From NCBI GenBank assembly GCA_964106645.2, contig OZ067047.1: a stretch of DNA of 64,000 bases; one strand, written 5' to 3'. Shown one piece after another: positions 12,001 to 21,000 of the stretch. A program made the position numbers. This DNA is from Podarcis pityusensis (taxonomy: Eukaryota). The stretch's first letter is position 1, and every line of letters starts with the position of its first letter.

Positions 12001-15000
12001 AGAGCCATAATATACTATTTATATAAGCTTATGAAGATTTCAAATGAACCAGTATTCATCTTCATTTTCTATTTCTTTTTATCTTTTCTCAGCTATCTAT
12101 TTTTTTAAAGAAACTACCCAGCTCCTTATTAAATCTCATATGCCCAACTGCACAAAAACTTATTTCACACTGCCACCAATTTTTTGACACTGCACAAAAT
12201 GCGTCTGGTTTGACGTTATAACTTAATAACTACTCCAGGGTTTATTCTAAGAGGTTTTATGTTATTCTTGTCACTGGCTCATAGTTCTTACTTTCACATA
12301 ATGTGCTCAGCAAAGATTTGCAAAGCTCAGGGGGAGGGGAAGAAGTCTGAAAATAGTAGGACAGAGTTTGCCAACTTTTTTGACCCATGGGCACATTTGC
12401 CTGCTCCACAGTTGCACATGCACAGCCATGCAAACATGTACAGGCATGTACAAAAGGCTTCCTTCAAGCCTAAGTTCCATTTGGGGAGAAGAGGACAGGA
12501 CCTGGCAGGGACCAAAGAAGGGTTCTGGGGGAGCATGTGCAGTGGTGTGTACCATGGGGGAAGAAAACATCTATTTACTTACTTACTTACTTACTTATTT
12601 AAGAAGAGGCTATTAAAAGTGAGTTAATGACAAAACAACTCATAAACAACAGAGTGCCTGATGCATAGCTTCAGTCTCTTGTCACTCCATTAGAAAATCT
12701 GTAGTCTGCGCTTAACTTCACTATAATAATTTGAGAAACATATTTCCTGCATGTTTTCATTCATTTTCAAATTCTCTCTTCCTGCCCCCATCTACTAAAT
12801 CCTAGTTTAAGAACGCCAAATAAGGCTGTTATTTTTTTTTTTAAAAAAAGTCAGTTCCTTCTAACATTATACAGTAATCTTGAGAAAATGTGTGTATGAA
12901 TCTCAAAAAGAGCTTAATATTCCCCAATTACCTATTTCTCTTAAGTGAAATGGACGAACTGCTTTATTTTTTTACCTGACCTAAATCATTTCTGGGTCGA
13001 GATTTCATGAATTTCAATACATATCACATGGATATATTTCATCCATGGATAATTTCAGTATGCACGATTCAATTAACAGAACATTATTTATTTATTTTGA
13101 AACATTATTTATACACCACTAAAACAGGCACACACAATATGTTTGAACACACTGGTTGCATTCACACAGCCCCAGGCACAAGCAGAGTAAACAGATCAGG
13201 AAGTCTGGCTTCTCTATGTGTCTGTACTTCAGAACACGGTTTGTTGCTGCTTCTTAACAAGCCACAATCAAGAGACAACCTTAAGCCGCGGTTAATTGTT
13301 GATGTGCTGATTGTTTATTCCATTCGCACTAGGGGAAGACTGAAGCAGCAGTGACCTAGCAGCATCCAACAGCATGCTGCTCTTTCACAATAAATCACGA
13401 TAAGCAAGAAAGTCTGGCTTATCATTACAAGCAAACACTATCTTGGTAAAGCTCGTGGCAATTTCTTCCACATAAATATTTACAGAAATAACTAGTTGCC
13501 ATTTTAGATTGTTTATCTTAACCCTGCATCTAGAACAACAATGGTTTTAAAAAAAATAAAAATGAAAGGCACACCTCACACTGGAGAATTCCAGAGTTAT
13601 ATTTATCTGCTATTAATTTTAGTGAATTCTCTTTTTTAAAAAAAATAATAATAATCTTTATTGCTTTTAAAACTTACAAGAAAAGGAAAAAGAAGAAAAT
13701 AGGCGAGAGACAAAGACAAGATAAAGCAGAGAAGAAAAAAGAGAGAGAGAGAGAGAAAAGAAGAAACAATACAATAAACAATGCAAAACACTACCTTAAG
13801 ACACTAAACTAAACAAAACAAAAGAACAACAATTTAAAAACATATACCATACCATTTCATTACTCTATCTTTCATTCCCTTATTTCATCGACCTCCTCTC
13901 ACCTCCCTTTTTGTATTCCACTTCTATTACTTGTTTCAGCAATTCCTTTCCATCTTTCTCTGTTTTTATCATTATGAATATCTTAACATATTTTGTACCT
14001 TATTTTCCATTAATACTGAAATACTTATTTATACCTAACTCCTTATAACATTTCTGCTAAAGCCATAAAGTTTCAATCCAACAATTTTCTAACACTCATT
14101 AAATTTACAATATTTCTATATATAAACTTTAAACTTTCCCAATCTTCTACCACCATCTCTTCTCCTGGTCTCGGATTCTGCCAGTCATTTCCGTCCATTC
14201 CATATAGTTCATCAACCTGGAGATCTTCTGTCCGAGGCTCTTAAATCTTTTCCAAGTCCCTTCTGCAGTTTTTCTTCATATTCTTTGATGCTGAGGGTGC
14301 TGAAGTGCAGGTCTTGGGGGGGCCCCGACCCAACCATGCCCCCATTCCCTCTCGACAGACCAACCAACTCTCCACAGCTAAAACCAGTGTCCATACAATA
14401 TCTCAAATCCTGTTTCAAGGCTCCTCCAGATCCAAAGGACCCCACAACTCCAATCACCTCCTGACCCAGATTCAGGACCCAAAGGTCAGTAAATCTCTGC
14501 ATGAGAGAGTCTATCCAACCTTCCTTCTTCAATCCAAGCAGGGCTCCAATCTTCAAATTCTGACTTTTTCTATATTCATTCATAAAAGGCCTCCACTTAT
14601 AGTCCTCAGTTTGCCTCTGTAAGACTGGGGCTTCCACTTGTGTTAATTTAGGTTTAACAACACCAACATTCTTCTTCGTCTTCTCCCCAGTTTGTCCTGT
14701 CAAGGTAGGTTCCTGTGTCAAATCCTGAACAATTTCTGTATTAATGGTCACTTTTTGTTCCAAATTAATCACTTTTTGTCCCAAGTTCTCAAGTTTGGTA
14801 TTCATAGCGTCCGTCTTCTTGTGGAGCTGTTCCAACGGATAGCTTATCTTACATAATATAGTCACTAAGGCTCCTTCTGTCAACATTCTTAAAGTCCAAG
14901 GTCAGTCTCTATTTCACACAGTTCTTATCTTGCAACTGGAAAAACCCCAGCTCCACTTGTAACAGTTTCAAAAGCTCCCTCTAGAGGGAAACAGTCTCCA

Positions 15001-18000: not shown

Positions 18001-21000
18001 CTCTAGGGGGAAAAACTTCTATTTGTATCCATCTCTCTCCTTTTTTTTTTTTTAAAGCAAATCTAACAACAAAGTTTCCTTTTTCAGATATTTTGTCAAT
18101 ATTTTGTTCCTTTTAGATGCGAAGGGGAACAATGGAATCAATATGTTTCTCTTCTTTTAACTATCTGTCAAAAACGGTTGTCTATAGTCAATGAAATTCC
18201 CGAAGACGTCTGTCCTGACACCCCGCTCCCAGGTTCAGGACGGTGGAGAATTGCTTTTCTTTACTTGTCTTCTGCAAGTTGAATCAGTCCAGAAAAAGTT
18301 CCCCCCTCTTCTCCTGCTTCCAAGGGAGGTTCAGTAATTTTAAATGATGAAAATTGATCCTTTACAACGATTTTCTAAGCTCTAGCTTGCCGTGTCTTTG
18401 CTTCAATCTATTTACAAAAAGCGGAAGGCAGACTTCCTGTTTAGACCTTCCCGCTTCAGTGCCAAATTTAAAAAAATTTCTTATTTCAATTTTCCGTTCT
18501 ACTCACGGACGGTTATTTAAGCTCCAATTGTCCACAGGAAAAAGTCAGCGCTCTCCGGCAACAGCAATGCGGCTTCACTCCGTGAAAGAAGCAGTCGATT
18601 CAAGGCACCGCGCCACTCACCCCACGTCGCTCCAGAACCCCGAAATCGGGTTTCCCCGCGAGTAGGGGGGGCGCAAAGGTGCCGGCTGAATCCCATGTCC
18701 ACAGGCTTCTCCCGCCTGTGGTTTTTGATGGGTCTCCGCCTCGCCGTGGTGGTTCAGACCCTGTTTTCCACGGAGCGGATTCCTCCCGATCGGACGAAAT
18801 CCGCCATTGCCAGAGGCGCCAACCCGGAAGTCATGCAAAGAAACAGTGTGGATGGTTTAGAATCAGGAGTGGTTAAATATCCATTTCAAAAGCAACATTT
18901 TCTATGTGGAAAAATGTGAAGGCCTCTGTTTTTCTTCGCCCAGGCACAAACCAGACAGAAACAGCAGTAGTTTTATCTTCACTGTAATTACTGTGCCAGC
19001 CGTACAAAAGTAAAGTACTTTACTGAAATAAATGTGGAAATAAACTTCGAAAGTGTGAAACCCCATTGCTACTTCTCATGTTATTTATTCAGCAAAACAG
19101 GAGTATTACAGCAAGAAGTGTTGACTGCGCATAACTATCACTGAAAGATGTCAGTCTGTCAAGCTACTCCCACAAACAATCATTATTGCTATCTTCAGAT
19201 TTGTTGAATTCCCATCCCTCTACACCAGGCATGGCCAAACTTGGTCCTCCAGATGCTCTGGGACTACAACTCCCATCATCCCTAGCTAACAGGACCAGTG
19301 GCCAGGGATGATGGGAACTGTAGTCCCAAAACATCTGGAGGGCCAAGTTTGGTCATGCCTGCTCTACACAATCCTGGAGAAGGTCTTCAGATACCCAGCT
19401 CTAAGGGTCATATAGGGGTTCAAAAGTTACATCCAGAACTTTGAATTGTACCTAGAAACAAAAAGGAATCCAATGATTTTTATTTTTAAACTAAGGATGT
19501 GTCTTCTGATTGACCAGCCTTAGTTAATCATCTAGCTCCAGGTTTCCTGAACCAGATGTAGTTTCCAAGGTATGGTGCCCTCTAGGTGTTTTGGATTACT
19601 ACTCTCATCGGCCCCATCCGGCACAGCTGTCTTGATAGGGTTTGATTGAAGTTGCAGTCCAAACATCTGGACAATACCAGATTTGCAAAGGCAGCAGTAC
19701 TCTAACCTAGATGTTATCTGGGCACAAAGAACTGTGACTAGAGAGAAGTAGGAGCTGGTGCACCAGACTCATATAAGAAACAGTAAAAGGTGTTTTCAGC
19801 TACAGATGCCACCTCAACATAAAGAAAATAAGGGCCAGAGCTAACTGCCAAGCTAATCCATTAGAAAGAATAAAACTGCAACCAGAATGGGAGAAAATAA
19901 CACTTCCACCAGCTACCAACAGCACCATCTATTAAATATAATGTGGTCTGTAAGTTAGCTTGTGTACTATCCATCATGTCTAGAAAATACATTGAAATGA
20001 GAGACCACACTTTACTGAAAGATATATAGAAAATTACATTTTCAAGATTACCCACTCTTTATCTACTACCATGTTCAGATTACTTAAGTGAACAATTCTT
20101 TCCTTTCTGCCCATTAAGAAAGATACTGTGTTTTCCTTTTACCTTCTCGAGATCAAAAGCTTATTTTGCAAAGACTCCGCCACCCCATAGGTCAACGACT
20201 TGCATCATATTTTCATGACAAACACTTATGCAAGACAAATTGCAGACAGGCATGAAAAGGCAAAGCAATAAGCTGGAGTTAGTCCAATCTCATGTTAGCT
20301 ACTTTGACTTTAACACAGTACTACGTGCAACAAAACAATTAAGAGAGGGGGGAAAGAAATACAATTTCAGACTTATTAAAAATGCATAAAGTGCCCACTT
20401 GGAACAGTATAAATTAATGTATCTCCTGCCACACCATTAGTTGCAAGGCTAAGAATGATGCTACTCAGCAGGCTAGTGCTTTAATGAAGAAGCACCTGAA
20501 TTCCAGGGAGGAACACCTGTGGTTGGAAATCAGAAAACACTTGCGATCAAAAAGAGAGCTGCTGAGTAATGTGTTTTCTGGATCTCAGTCCCATGTGTTT
20601 CTAAAGAGGGTACATATAATAACACAGTTTGAAATATTCCAGCGTACGAGAGTAGAGTACTAACAGAACAAAGGAAGAGCGCATATACTTTTAGGTATAT
20701 GCAAAGTAAGGTTAGAGTCATTCACTTCAATAAGCAGAGTTACAGGAAAGTATTTATCATGATTAAGGAGGGGAAAGTTATATAGAAGAGGCGCCAACGA
20801 AACATAGCTCAAATGGAAGGGAGACCCAGTATTCTGAGCATGTGCACAAACATATATGCATGCTTTCTTTCTCTGAACAACTAAGTGTAATGTTCCTGAT
20901 TGGTCCATACCATTTGATTGTTGTTTAAGACAAGACTACAGGTAGACCACCTAGCTCATTCAACTTTTTAGAAAATGAATGTAGCACTCACTGGCTTGGA

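What the first reader, a model, noticed from the sequence alone, without database searches (positions are those of the whole stretch)
13632..18832. Pair of ~2.1-kb RT-less L1 derivatives whose single ORF stays open while its protein diverges rapidly
Seen: two complete, collinear, same-strand elements. Copy A has a 17-bp TSD and A tail, so it retrotransposed as a unit. Neither has endonuclease or RT. Each has about 870-925 nt of 5' UTR and one uninterrupted ORF (224 and 210 aa) that starts and stops at homologous positions. By eye the CpG-rich 5' ends are roughly 80-85% identical, but the proteins are only roughly 40% identical. The ORFs differ by a net in-frame 14 codons with no stops, including an apparent 7-residue (one heptad) indel in the coiled-coil region (LGQKVINLEQKV vs FGQAV). 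Established: HAL1 elements are ORF1-only L1 derivatives, and L1 ORF1p coiled coils evolve by heptad indels and adaptive change. Inference: this is a lizard family of non-autonomous L1 parasites with at least two subfamilies, under selection either for translatability itself (ribosome engagement to capture ORF2p in trans, or NMD avoidance) or for a fast-evolving ORF1p-like protein in a host or helper conflict.
[Added by the scan's program, not by the reader: the finding's places include an assembly gap (unread letters, written N; its length is only estimated) at 16217 to 16346. Whether the letters on both sides are continuous or in frame is not known: test that first.]
Basis: partly seen in the sequence, partly recalled or inferred. 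Interest (0 to 1): 0.75.

Follow-up and report, generated by a model that had tools for sequence, protein, structure and literature searches.

The report
Lizard L1 parasites lacking reverse transcriptase
Two neighbouring 2.1-kb jumping-gene copies in a lizard-like genome are stripped-down relatives of LINE-1 that keep only a shortened first gene, and that gene has stayed readable despite heavy sequence change, so the family probably still needs it to hitch a ride on complete LINE-1 elements.

Summary
Two collinear minus-strand elements (13632-15753; about 16672-18832) each carry an 867/925-nt leader, one ORF (224/210 aa) and a 580/603-nt AT-rich trailer with AATAAA and A6. Copy A has an exact 17-bp target duplication; none was found for copy B. 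The N gap (16217-16346) lies between the copies, inside neither.

The ORFs are shortened L1-type ORF1 proteins. They match full-length lizard ORF1p-like proteins (profile-profile probability 98.8%), which in turn match solved human L1 ORF1p weakly. The closest N-terminal relative is fused to an L1 ORF2p segment (E 3.9e-15). No RT or endonuclease is present.

Selection keeps the frame open. There are 0 stops, against 6.5-7.5 expected under neutral change (0.03-0.07% of simulations stay open). In the ORF 4 of 4 indels are in frame, against 6 of 27 outside. The leaders hold 2-3 upstream ATGs against 11-12.5 expected. Omega is 0.83, not different from 1.

Short relatives (199-224 aa, including two Podarcis lilfordi proteins) share the internal losses and a conserved C-terminal tail.

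Verdict: a HAL1-like, ORF1-only L1 parasite lineage with a truncated ORF1p. Copy number, curated repeat libraries and the protein fold could not be checked.

The parts
13632..15753 (-). Element A, complete: leader, ORF, trailer, A6 tail
   Evidence: Bounded by the exact 17-bp duplication. Collinear with B along its whole length.
13615..13631 (.). Target-site duplication of A, copy at the element's 3' side
   Evidence: 17 of 17 bases identical to 15754-15770.
15754..15770 (.). Target-site duplication of A, copy at the element's 5' side
14887..15753 (-). Leader (5' UTR) of A, 867 nt. The first 400 nt are CpG-rich and the best conserved part.
   Evidence: CpG obs/exp is 0.71-1.09 in the first 400 nt against 0.24 for the window. 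Identity to B there is 82-85%. It holds 2 upstream ATGs against 11.2 in dinucleotide shuffles; 0 of 1000 shuffles were as low.
14212..14886 (-). ORF A, 224 aa: a shortened L1-type ORF1 protein (coiled-coil part, relics of RRM and CTD, conserved tail)
   Evidence: 34% identity over 176 aa to the Podarcis lilfordi L1 RRM-domain protein P0013, E 1e-21.
14748..14787 (-). 21-nt tandem duplication inside ORF A, equal to one extra heptad relative to B
   Evidence: Family D18: two 19-nt units 21 nt apart, 89% identical. It coincides with the 21-nt gap in B.
13632..14211 (-). Trailer (3' UTR) of A, 580 nt, 71% A+T, with AATAAA at 13657-13662 and the A6 tail at 13632-13637
   Evidence: The three sense frames hold 12-16 stops.
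14160..14282 (-). 123-nt block straddling the stop codon of A, 80% identical to 17223-17345 in B
   Evidence: Family D3. The segment of the last 25 codons plus 100 nt is 75% identical, against 55-63% in the rest of the ORF.
16672..18832 (-). Element B. Its ends are set by homology to A; no target duplication was found, and the 3' end could lie up to about 12 nt further out.
17908..18832 (-). Leader (5' UTR) of B, 925 nt
   Evidence: 3 upstream ATGs against 12.5 in shuffles; 0 of 1000 shuffles were as low. CpG obs/exp is 0.92-1.22 in the first 400 nt.
17275..17907 (-). ORF B, 210 aa: a shortened L1-type ORF1 protein of a second subfamily
   Evidence: It is 69% identical (145/210, E 2e-102) to the Podarcis lilfordi hypothetical protein P0012.
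16672..17274 (-). Trailer (3' UTR) of B, 603 nt, with AATAAA at 16689-16694 and A6 at 16672-16677
16217..16346 (.). Assembly gap (N) between the two elements; not part of either
   Evidence: Left as it is.

Best explanation
These are two independent insertions of a non-autonomous, RT-less derivative of a lizard LINE-1. It is analogous to mammalian HAL1 ('half-L1') and belongs to two diverged subfamilies.

Each copy is a self-contained transcription unit. It has a CpG-rich leader that starts at the element's first base (inferred to be an internal promoter), a leader almost free of upstream ATGs, one ORF, and an AT-rich trailer with a polyadenylation signal. The polyadenylated RNA is copied into the genome by the ORF2 protein of autonomous L1 elements acting in trans. 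This step is inferred from the 17-bp target duplication and A tail of copy A.

The ORF encodes a cut-down ORF1 protein. The N-terminal coiled-coil part and a conserved C-terminal tail are kept, and the RNA-binding core between them is partly deleted and degenerate. My reading is that the lineage needs this protein's two ends. The middle is a freely evolving in-frame linker, which would explain why the frame stays open while most of the sequence drifts at a near-neutral rate. The coiled coil may let the nascent protein join ORF1p of the helper L1 on the parasite's own RNA; this is inference, not shown.

Sub-confidences:
- RT-less L1 derivative: 0.85.
- Open frame kept by selection: 0.9.
- The protein's ends, rather than translation alone, are what is needed: about 0.55.
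For: L1 descent:
- A profile of the two ORFs finds 11 proteins among 1.84 billion. Among them are full-length coiled-coil/RRM/CTD proteins (P0006, P0007).
- The short family against 18 full-length lizard proteins gives hhalign probability 98.8%, E 7.5e-17, over 195 collinear columns.
- P0007 matches human L1 ORF1p 2ykp at E 0.0046. The 18-member profile matches 2ldy at E 7.8e-4.
- P0013 carries the source name 'L1 transposable element RRM domain-co...' and matches ORF A at E 1e-21.
- P0005 is the closest relative of ORF A's N-terminal part (34/62 identical). It continues into a segment matching human L1 ORF2p (8sxt_A 752-882, E 3.9e-15).

Mobility as a unit:
- Copy A has an exact 17-bp duplication, AATAAA and an A6 tail.
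- A and B align through the ORF end and the whole trailer. The ORF2-less layout therefore predates their divergence.

Selection on translation:
- 0 stops against a mean of 6.5-7.5 in neutral simulation; 0.03-0.07% of simulations stay open.
- 4 of 4 ORF indels are multiples of three against 6 of 27 outside (Fisher P 0.0067).
- 2 and 3 upstream ATGs against 11.2 and 12.5 expected; 0 of 1000 shuffles were as low. The trailers hold 17 and 20 ATGs.

Two constrained ends:
- Omega is 0.40 in the N-terminal third (2dlnL 4.08), then 0.83 and 1.49 in the other thirds.
- Across 7 short-family representatives, the last 24 residues are 57% identical on average (10 of 24 columns nearly invariant). Elsewhere identity is 24-31% (13 of 200 columns).
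- P0004 lacks a further stretch of the middle but keeps both ends.
Against: - No Pfam L1 ORF1 model matched the window ORFs, the 11 first hits or P0012/P0013. None was among the 25 families listed for the 18 full-length proteins.
- The window ORFs alone, the short-family profile, the 4-member profile and P0013 gave no L1 ORF1p hit in the PDB. The link to L1 ORF1p is therefore transitive and its direct E-values are modest.
- Overall omega (0.83) is not different from 1 (2dlnL 0.61). The N-terminal result is marginal and is one of three tests.
- Codon-position differences are flat: 77, 80 and 81 of 207. In the tail they are 3, 7 and 5 of 23.
- The conserved block at the ORF end runs on past the stop codon. 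The tail's conservation could therefore be an RNA or DNA feature rather than a protein one.
- A stored model of the short relative P0012 is of low confidence (pTM 0.19, pLDDT 0.45). I could not make a model of my own.
- Copy B has no recognisable target duplication.
- Only two copies are in the window, and no eukaryotic genome could be searched.
Confidence: 0.55

Rival explanations
1. Same element and same trans-mobilisation, but the protein is irrelevant. What selection keeps is translation itself: ribosome loading, RNA stability, or proximity to helper ORF2p being made. The conserved ORF end is then an RNA or DNA signal.
For: Omega is 0.83 overall and not different from 1. Codon-position differences are flat. 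The leaders are strongly depleted of upstream ATGs. The conserved block continues beyond the stop codon. The stored model of a short relative is of low confidence.
Against: If translation alone mattered, a shorter ORF should do. Yet 8 of the 9 short relatives that I aligned run to the same C-terminal motif and are 199-224 aa long; the ninth, P0001, ends early. The tail is the best-conserved protein segment across relatives that are otherwise 24-31% identical. The N-terminal third has omega 0.40.
Confidence: 0.28
2. The short ORF is the normal ORF1 of an autonomous L1 family, and A and B are copies that each lost ORF2 by separate internal deletions.
For: Internal-deletion forms exist among relatives: P0005 joins an ORF1 part to an ORF2 part.
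Against: A and B align continuously from the ORF end through the whole 580/603-nt trailer, although they differ by 37-45% in the ORF. One shared ORF2-less ancestor is far more economical than two identical deletions. No trace of ORF2 is detectable in the trailers by tblastn with P0005.
Confidence: 0.07
3. A host gene family derived from ORF1p (as L1TD1 is in mammals), seen here as two retrocopies.
For: The ORF is maintained and the short proteins appear as predicted proteins in an annotated Podarcis lilfordi genome.
Against: Both copies begin at the same first bases of a CpG-rich leader and carry it with them, together with their own polyadenylation signal. That is the habit of LINE-like elements, not of retrocopied genes. 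Copy A has a fresh target duplication. Omega is near 1. The two neighbouring copies belong to deeply diverged subfamilies.
Confidence: 0.05
4. Dead relics whose frames are open by chance.
For: The window also holds an unrelated 223-codon stop-free run with no family match, so long open runs do occur.
Against: Two homologous frames are open across 38% nucleotide difference (0.03-0.07% expected). All ORF indels are in frame. The other five frames hold 4-19 stops. Relatives elsewhere keep the same start and end.
Confidence: 0.02

Closest known systems
HAL1 ('half-L1') of mammals
   Same: A non-autonomous L1 derivative that encodes only ORF1p and is thought to use L1's machinery. HAL1s arose several times independently. 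Sources: passages seen in Kojima 2018 (PMC5753468), McLaughlin 2014 (PMC4161310) and Hancks & Kazazian 2016 (PMC4859970). The primary paper, Bao & Jurka 2010, is not held.
   Different: The host is a lizard, so the origin is separate. [quoted passage not shown] Most of it drifts near neutrality. No HAL1 sequence was on hand, so no direct comparison was made.
Autonomous L1 of lizards (Anolis L1 families; full-length Podarcis ORF1p-like proteins such as P0013)
   Same: The N-terminal/coiled-coil part and the first half of the RRM are homologous. The very 5' end of the leader is conserved between families, as reported for Anolis L1 (passage in Boissinot & Sookdeo 2016, PMC5381506).
   Different: There is no ORF2. 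That paper reports the RRM and CTD as very conserved among lizard L1 families, but here they are the degenerate parts.
ORF1-only telomeric retrotransposons of Drosophila (HeT-A type; the name is recalled)
   Same: Long-lived lineages that have lost ORF2, depend on ORF2 proteins of other families, and can give rise to new ORF1-only lineages (passages in bioRxiv 10.1101/2025.06.09.658640).
   Different: They belong to the Jockey clade, have a different ORF1 protein type, and insert at telomeres.
Host genes and exons derived from L1 ORF1p (L1TD1; Lyosin and other fusion isoforms)
   Same: They reuse ORF1p parts, often keeping the coiled coil (PMC4161310 passages; Kitao 2025, PMC12129022, abstract and section 11).
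   Different: Those are fixed host genes under purifying selection. Here the unit carries its own leader, polyadenylation signal and a target duplication.

Membership tests
L1-clade non-LTR retrotransposon (derivative) | ORF1 protein of the coiled-coil / RRM / CTD type, homologous to L1 ORF1p | tested here: met
   Met only transitively. Short family against full-length lizard family: probability 98.8%. Full-length family against human L1 ORF1p: E 0.0046 and 7.8e-4. A relative is fused to an L1 ORF2p segment at E 3.9e-15. Direct Pfam and PDB searches with the window ORFs found nothing.
L1-clade non-LTR retrotransposon (derivative) | ORF2 with endonuclease and reverse transcriptase | tested here: not met
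   No such domain in or next to either element. The trailers hold 12-22 stops per frame. Its absence is what makes the element non-autonomous.
L1-clade non-LTR retrotransposon (derivative) | Insertion by target-primed reverse transcription: target-site duplication plus 3' A tail after a polyadenylation signal | tested here: met
   Copy A: exact 17-bp duplication, AATAAA and A6. Copy B: signal and A6 are present but no duplication was found.
L1-clade non-LTR retrotransposon (derivative) | Endonuclease target resembling TT/AAAA (recalled consensus) | tested here: inconclusive
   In element orientation the junction at copy A reads AT/GAGAAT. This is a partial resemblance from a single site.
L1-clade non-LTR retrotransposon (derivative) | Internal promoter in the 5' UTR | not testable with these tools
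   Consistent only: both copies start at homologous first bases, and the first 400 nt are CpG-rich and the best conserved part.
HAL1-like (ORF1-only L1 derivative) | L1-derived, encodes ORF1p only, no ORF2 | tested here: met
HAL1-like (ORF1-only L1 derivative) | ORF1p complete, with all its domains (recalled for HAL1; not verified here) | tested here: not met
   Two internal losses (about 40 and about 17 residues, in the RRM and CTD) plus both termini shortened relative to 18 full-length lizard proteins.
HAL1-like (ORF1-only L1 derivative) | Amplified as a family of its own, with subfamilies | tested here: inconclusive
   There are two diverged copies in the window. I aligned 7 short relatives from protein collections with them. 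Copy B's subfamily is seen in Podarcis lilfordi at 69% identity. The genomic copy number could not be counted.
HAL1-like (ORF1-only L1 derivative) | Sequence relationship to curated HAL1 or squamate L1 entries (Repbase/Dfam) | not testable with these tools
   No repeat library was on hand.
SINE | Short, with a pol III head derived from tRNA, 7SL or 5S | tested here: not met
   The elements are 2.1 kb. Rfam gave 0 matches at gathering scores over the whole window and 0 at E up to 1 over 13500-19000.
Domesticated ORF1p-derived host gene | Fixed locus, purifying selection, host promoter | tested here: not met
   Omega is 0.83, not different from 1. The unit carries its own leader, and copy A has a target duplication. 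Synteny could not be tested.

The most novel reading that the evidence does not exclude
A long-lived lineage of L1 parasites in lacertid lizards has reduced ORF1p to a minimal adaptor: a coiled coil and a conserved C-terminal tail, joined by a linker that is free to change provided it stays in frame. The nascent adaptor joins the helper L1's ORF1p on the parasite's own RNA. It thereby borrows RNA binding and ORF2p access that it can no longer provide for itself. That would be a new way for a non-autonomous retrotransposon to defeat the helper's preference for its own RNA.
Probability: 0.2. Interest if true: 0.7.

Novelty: new variant of a known kind. Interest (0 to 1): 0.45.

Why it matters
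ORF1-only L1 derivatives are described from mammals. In the searchable literature I found none described from lizards (searches; curated repeat libraries were not checkable).

This lineage separates two things that are usually confounded: the need for a reading frame and the need for a particular protein sequence. The frame, an ATG-free leader and the two protein ends are kept, while the RNA-binding core has partly gone.

If the pattern holds over many copies, it offers a natural dissection of which parts of ORF1p a parasite must supply in cis. It also bears on how helper preference for its own RNA is circumvented.

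Tried and rejected
Searches that gave nothing or little:
- Pfam and PDB sequence searches with the window ORFs.
- The word-indexed protein search with ORF A (191 candidates, none significant).
- PDB searches with the short-family profile, which gave only weak coiled-coil hits, with the 4-member profile and with P0013.
- Pfam on 18 full-length relatives, which listed only coiled-coil-type families.
- Rfam, with 0 matches in both modes.
- A consensus RNA fold of the block around the stop codon. With two sequences and 1 of 24 pairs compensatory, it says nothing.

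Readings rejected:
- Tandem duplication of a single insertion. Copy A has its own target duplication, the flanks do not align, and divergence is uneven along the element.
- LTR pair. The copies are 15-45% diverged and each is a full unit.
- The 11-mer shared between B's 3' flank and its 5' end as a target duplication. It lies inside the region homologous to A.
- The NG86 estimate of 0.58 as evidence of clear purifying selection. The likelihood model with a transition bias of 4.5 gives 0.83.

- Structure prediction, and hence the fold search.
- Cluster membership and organism names for the unnamed hits.
- Atlas look-up of the window protein itself.
- A Pfam scan of the trailers.
- Bao & Jurka 2010.
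- Any search of a eukaryotic genome or repeat library.

The prokaryotic genome collection and the phage, plasmid and E. coli collections were not used, because they cannot hold this element. Paper supplements were closed; those of Kitao 2025 might list TRIM fusions.

Full report
WHAT IS THERE

Both elements lie on the minus strand.

Copy A is bounded by an exact 17-bp direct duplication (13615-13631 and 15754-15770), so it spans 13632-15753. In element orientation it has four parts:
- an 867-nt leader;
- an ATG-to-stop ORF of 224 aa (14212-14886);
- a 580-nt trailer that is 71% A+T;
- AATAAA, 19 nt that include a T8 run, and six A's.

Copy B is collinear with A from its first bases to the same kind of end:
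- it spans about 16672-18832;
- its leader is 925 nt;
- its ORF is 17275-17907 (210 aa);
- its trailer is 603 nt, ending in AATAAA, 11 nt and A6.

I found no target duplication for B. The one 11-mer shared by its flanks sits inside the region homologous to A.

A BLASTN of each copy against the window finds only these two.

The assembly gap (16217-16346) lies between the copies, 446 nt beyond A's upstream duplication and 325 nt before B's 3' end. No ORF or element crosses it, so the question of frame continuity does not arise. Only the real spacing of A and B is unknown. I left the gap untouched.

The window is not human-like; its named relatives are from lizards. No splice model was involved.

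IS IT MORE THAN CHANCE?

ORF A is the longest stop-free run of the window (229 codons) and ORF B the third (214). An unrelated 223-codon run lies between them in rank.

Within the ORF coordinates the coding frame has 0 stops, while the other five frames have 4-19.

The two ORFs differ at 37-39% of aligned sites at each codon position (77, 80 and 81 of 207). Neutral simulation at that difference gives a mean of 6.5-7.5 stops. Only 0.03-0.07% of 20000 sequences stay open.

In a DNA-level alignment the four gaps inside the ORF are 21, 15, 9 and 6 nt. Outside the ORF, 6 of 27 gaps are multiples of three (Fisher P 0.0067).

The 21-nt gap is a tandem duplication in copy A (two units 21 nt apart, 17 of 19 bases identical). 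It amounts to one added heptad.

Dinucleotide-preserving shuffles give 11.2 and 12.5, and 0 of 1000 shuffles go as low. The trailers hold 17 and 20, and the antisense strand of the leaders 8 and 9. A long leader cleared of upstream start codons is what one expects if ribosomes must scan to the main ATG.

WHAT THE ORF IS

Direct searches fail:
- Pfam gives only two weak coiled-coil matches for A and nothing for B.
- PDB sequences give nothing.
- The word-indexed protein search gives nothing.

A profile of the two ORFs, run exhaustively over 1.84 billion representative proteins, finds 11 proteins at E up to 0.001, of which 6 are below 1e-10. They fall into two groups.

The first group is short proteins. 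Five are 199-215 aa long, start in the same way and all end in the same C-terminal motif as the window ORFs. A sixth, P0001 (174 aa), ends early.

The second group is longer proteins (274-422 aa). They have an N-terminal extension, a longer coiled-coil region, and then an RRM-like and a CTD-like part.

A search with the full-length P0007 returns 22 proteins. Among them are named ones from Podarcis lilfordi and P. muralis. One of these, P0013, is named by its source 'L1 transposable element RRM domain-co...'.

The comparisons that link the window ORFs to L1 are these:
- P0007 matches solved human L1 ORF1p across the end of the coiled coil, the RRM and the CTD (2ykp, E 0.0046; 2ldy, E 0.027).
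- A profile of 18 full-length relatives matches 2ldy at E 7.8e-4. Its best hits are trimeric coiled coils (2wpq, E 1.7e-6).
- The short family against the full-length family gives hhalign probability 98.8%, E 7.5e-17, over 195 collinear columns.
- ORF A against P0013 gives 34% identity over 176 residues, E 1e-21.
- P0005 has the N-terminal part closest to ORF A (34 of 62 identical; 42.5% over 134 residues by tblastn). It runs on into a segment that matches human L1 ORF2p (8sxt_A 752-882, E 3.9e-15).

So the ORF1 lineage to which the window ORFs belong is physically tied to an L1-type ORF2.

Against this stands Pfam. Its L1 ORF1 models never matched any of these lizard proteins at the thresholds used. 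They were not among the 25 families listed. Three PDB searches also gave no ORF1p hit. The chain of homology is sound, but its last link to mammalian ORF1p is weak at sequence level. Fold comparison, which would settle it, was not available.

HOW THE SHORT PROTEIN DIFFERS

Relative to the full-length lizard proteins, the short family lacks four things:
- the N-terminal extension (about 50 residues);
- one or more coiled-coil heptads;
- about 40 residues in the second half of the RRM, and about 17 residues in the CTD;
- the last 30-odd residues.

All 9 short members that I aligned share this layout, except that P0001 ends early and P0004 lacks a further part of the middle. The shortening is therefore old and inherited.

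A stored language-model structure of the short relative P0012 is of low confidence (pTM 0.19, pLDDT 0.45) and resembles nothing. That fits a degenerate core but proves little.

HOW IT EVOLVES

Identity between A and B along the element is as follows:
- first 400 nt: 82-85%;
- next 200 nt: 76%;
- rest of the leader: 69%;
- ORF: 55-63%;
- last 25 codons plus the next 100 nt: 75%;
- trailer: 73%, then 63%.

A 123-nt block at 80% identity straddles the stop codon. Of the 65 mismatches in the first 400 nt, 19 are CpG-to-TpG/CpA changes. That region still has CpG obs/exp of 0.7-1.2, against 0.24 for the window.

Between A and B, a Nei-Gojobori count gives dN/dS 0.58 (bootstrap 0.39-0.83). A likelihood codon model with F3x4 frequencies and an estimated transition bias of 4.5 gives 0.83, not different from 1 (2dlnL 0.61). 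By thirds the values are 0.40 (2dlnL 4.08), 0.83 and 1.49.

So the body of the protein drifts at close to the neutral rate. The coiled-coil end is somewhat constrained, and nothing shows adaptive acceleration. Some of the difference must also be decay since insertion, which pushes omega towards 1.

At family level the picture sharpens. Among 7 representatives, the last 24 residues average 57% pairwise identity, and 10 of 24 columns have at least 6 of 7 residues identical. Every other region averages 24-31%, with 13 of 200 such columns in all.

Between A and B the tail's differences fall 3, 7 and 5 on the three codon positions, and conservation continues past the stop. A nucleotide-level signal therefore cannot be excluded.

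WHAT IT MOST LIKELY IS AND DOES

Shown:
- an RT-less, ORF1-only unit of L1 descent;
- at least one copy inserted with a target duplication and an A tail;
- an ORF2-less layout shared by two deeply diverged subfamilies, so the layout has propagated for a long time;
- the frame and a start-codon-free leader kept by selection;
- relatives in Podarcis. ORF B is 69% identical to P0012 (145/210), with one in-frame 9-residue gap.

Inferred:
- transcription from an internal promoter in the CpG-rich leader;
- copying in trans by the ORF2p of autonomous L1s;
- a need for the two ends of the shortened protein, with the middle serving as an in-frame linker.

That last reading explains three things together: the open frame, the near-neutral middle, and P0004's extra in-frame loss.

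The main rival is that translation alone is what matters and that the ORF end is an RNA signal. The present data cannot exclude it, and I give it about half the weight of the protein reading.

COMPARISON WITH WHAT IS KNOWN

The closest described kind is HAL1 of mammals: a non-autonomous L1 derivative that encodes only ORF1p and arose several times. I saw passages on it in PMC5753468, PMC4161310 and PMC4859970. The primary paper is not held.

The Drosophila telomeric ORF1-only lineages are a second analogue (passages).

For Anolis L1, Boissinot & Sookdeo 2016 (passages) report three relevant things: ORF1's RRM and CTD are very conserved among families, the coiled coil is unusually conserved in lizards, and the first 100 bp of the leader are conserved among families. 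The last two fit what I see. The first is the opposite of what I see, as expected if the RNA-binding core is no longer used here.

Five literature searches turned up no description of an ORF1-only L1 derivative in lizards. In one search, 9 papers hold both 'HAL1' and 'lizard', and none is on this subject by title or abstract start. Subscription journals and curated repeat libraries were not searchable, so a Repbase or Dfam entry may exist.

VERDICT

Three points are refined:
- the ORF is a truncated ORF1p, not a whole one;
- selection for an open, translatable frame is well supported, and a new line of evidence (the ATG-free leader) is added;
- rapid or adaptive protein change is not shown.

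This is a new variant of a known kind and of moderate interest.

Noticed in passing
not in the window: proteins P0009 and P0014 (Podarcis muralis; one is named 'E3 ubiquitin-protein ligase TRIM39-like' by its source): These predicted proteins join a TRIM-type RING and B-box to the end of the coiled coil, the RRM and the CTD of an L1-type ORF1p. They could be an annotation chimera or a host fusion in the style of known TRIM-capsid-binder fusions. Section 11 of Kitao 2025 lists MYL4, RFX5, NUP42 and USP4 but no TRIM; its supplements were not seen.
   Followed up: partly
not in the window: protein P0005 (unnamed source): The N-terminal part of ORF1p, its coiled coil and the start of its RRM are fused in one frame to a segment matching human L1 ORF2p residues 752-882 (E 3.9e-15). 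This is another kind of internally deleted L1 among the relatives.
   Followed up: partly
window 51914-52582 (-): A 223-codon stop-free run, the second longest in the window. It has no Pfam match, its translation looks low in complexity, and it is unrelated to the ORF1p family by tblastn.
   Followed up: no
window 8587-9018 (+), 31764-32075 (-) and 32213-32671 (-): Fragments matching the reverse-transcriptase model RVT_1 (E 6.9e-05, 2.1e-05 and 3.5e-08). They are decayed retroelement copies, 4.6 kb or more from the two elements, and are not part of them.
   Followed up: no
window 16164-16205: An exact 21-bp tandem duplication that ends a few bases before the assembly gap.
   Followed up: no
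window 16631-16641 and 18806-18816: An 11-mer 30 nt outside B's 3' end is identical to a stretch inside B's own 5' end. About 0.002 such matches are expected by chance between two 100-nt stretches (my estimate). No explanation was found.
   Followed up: partly
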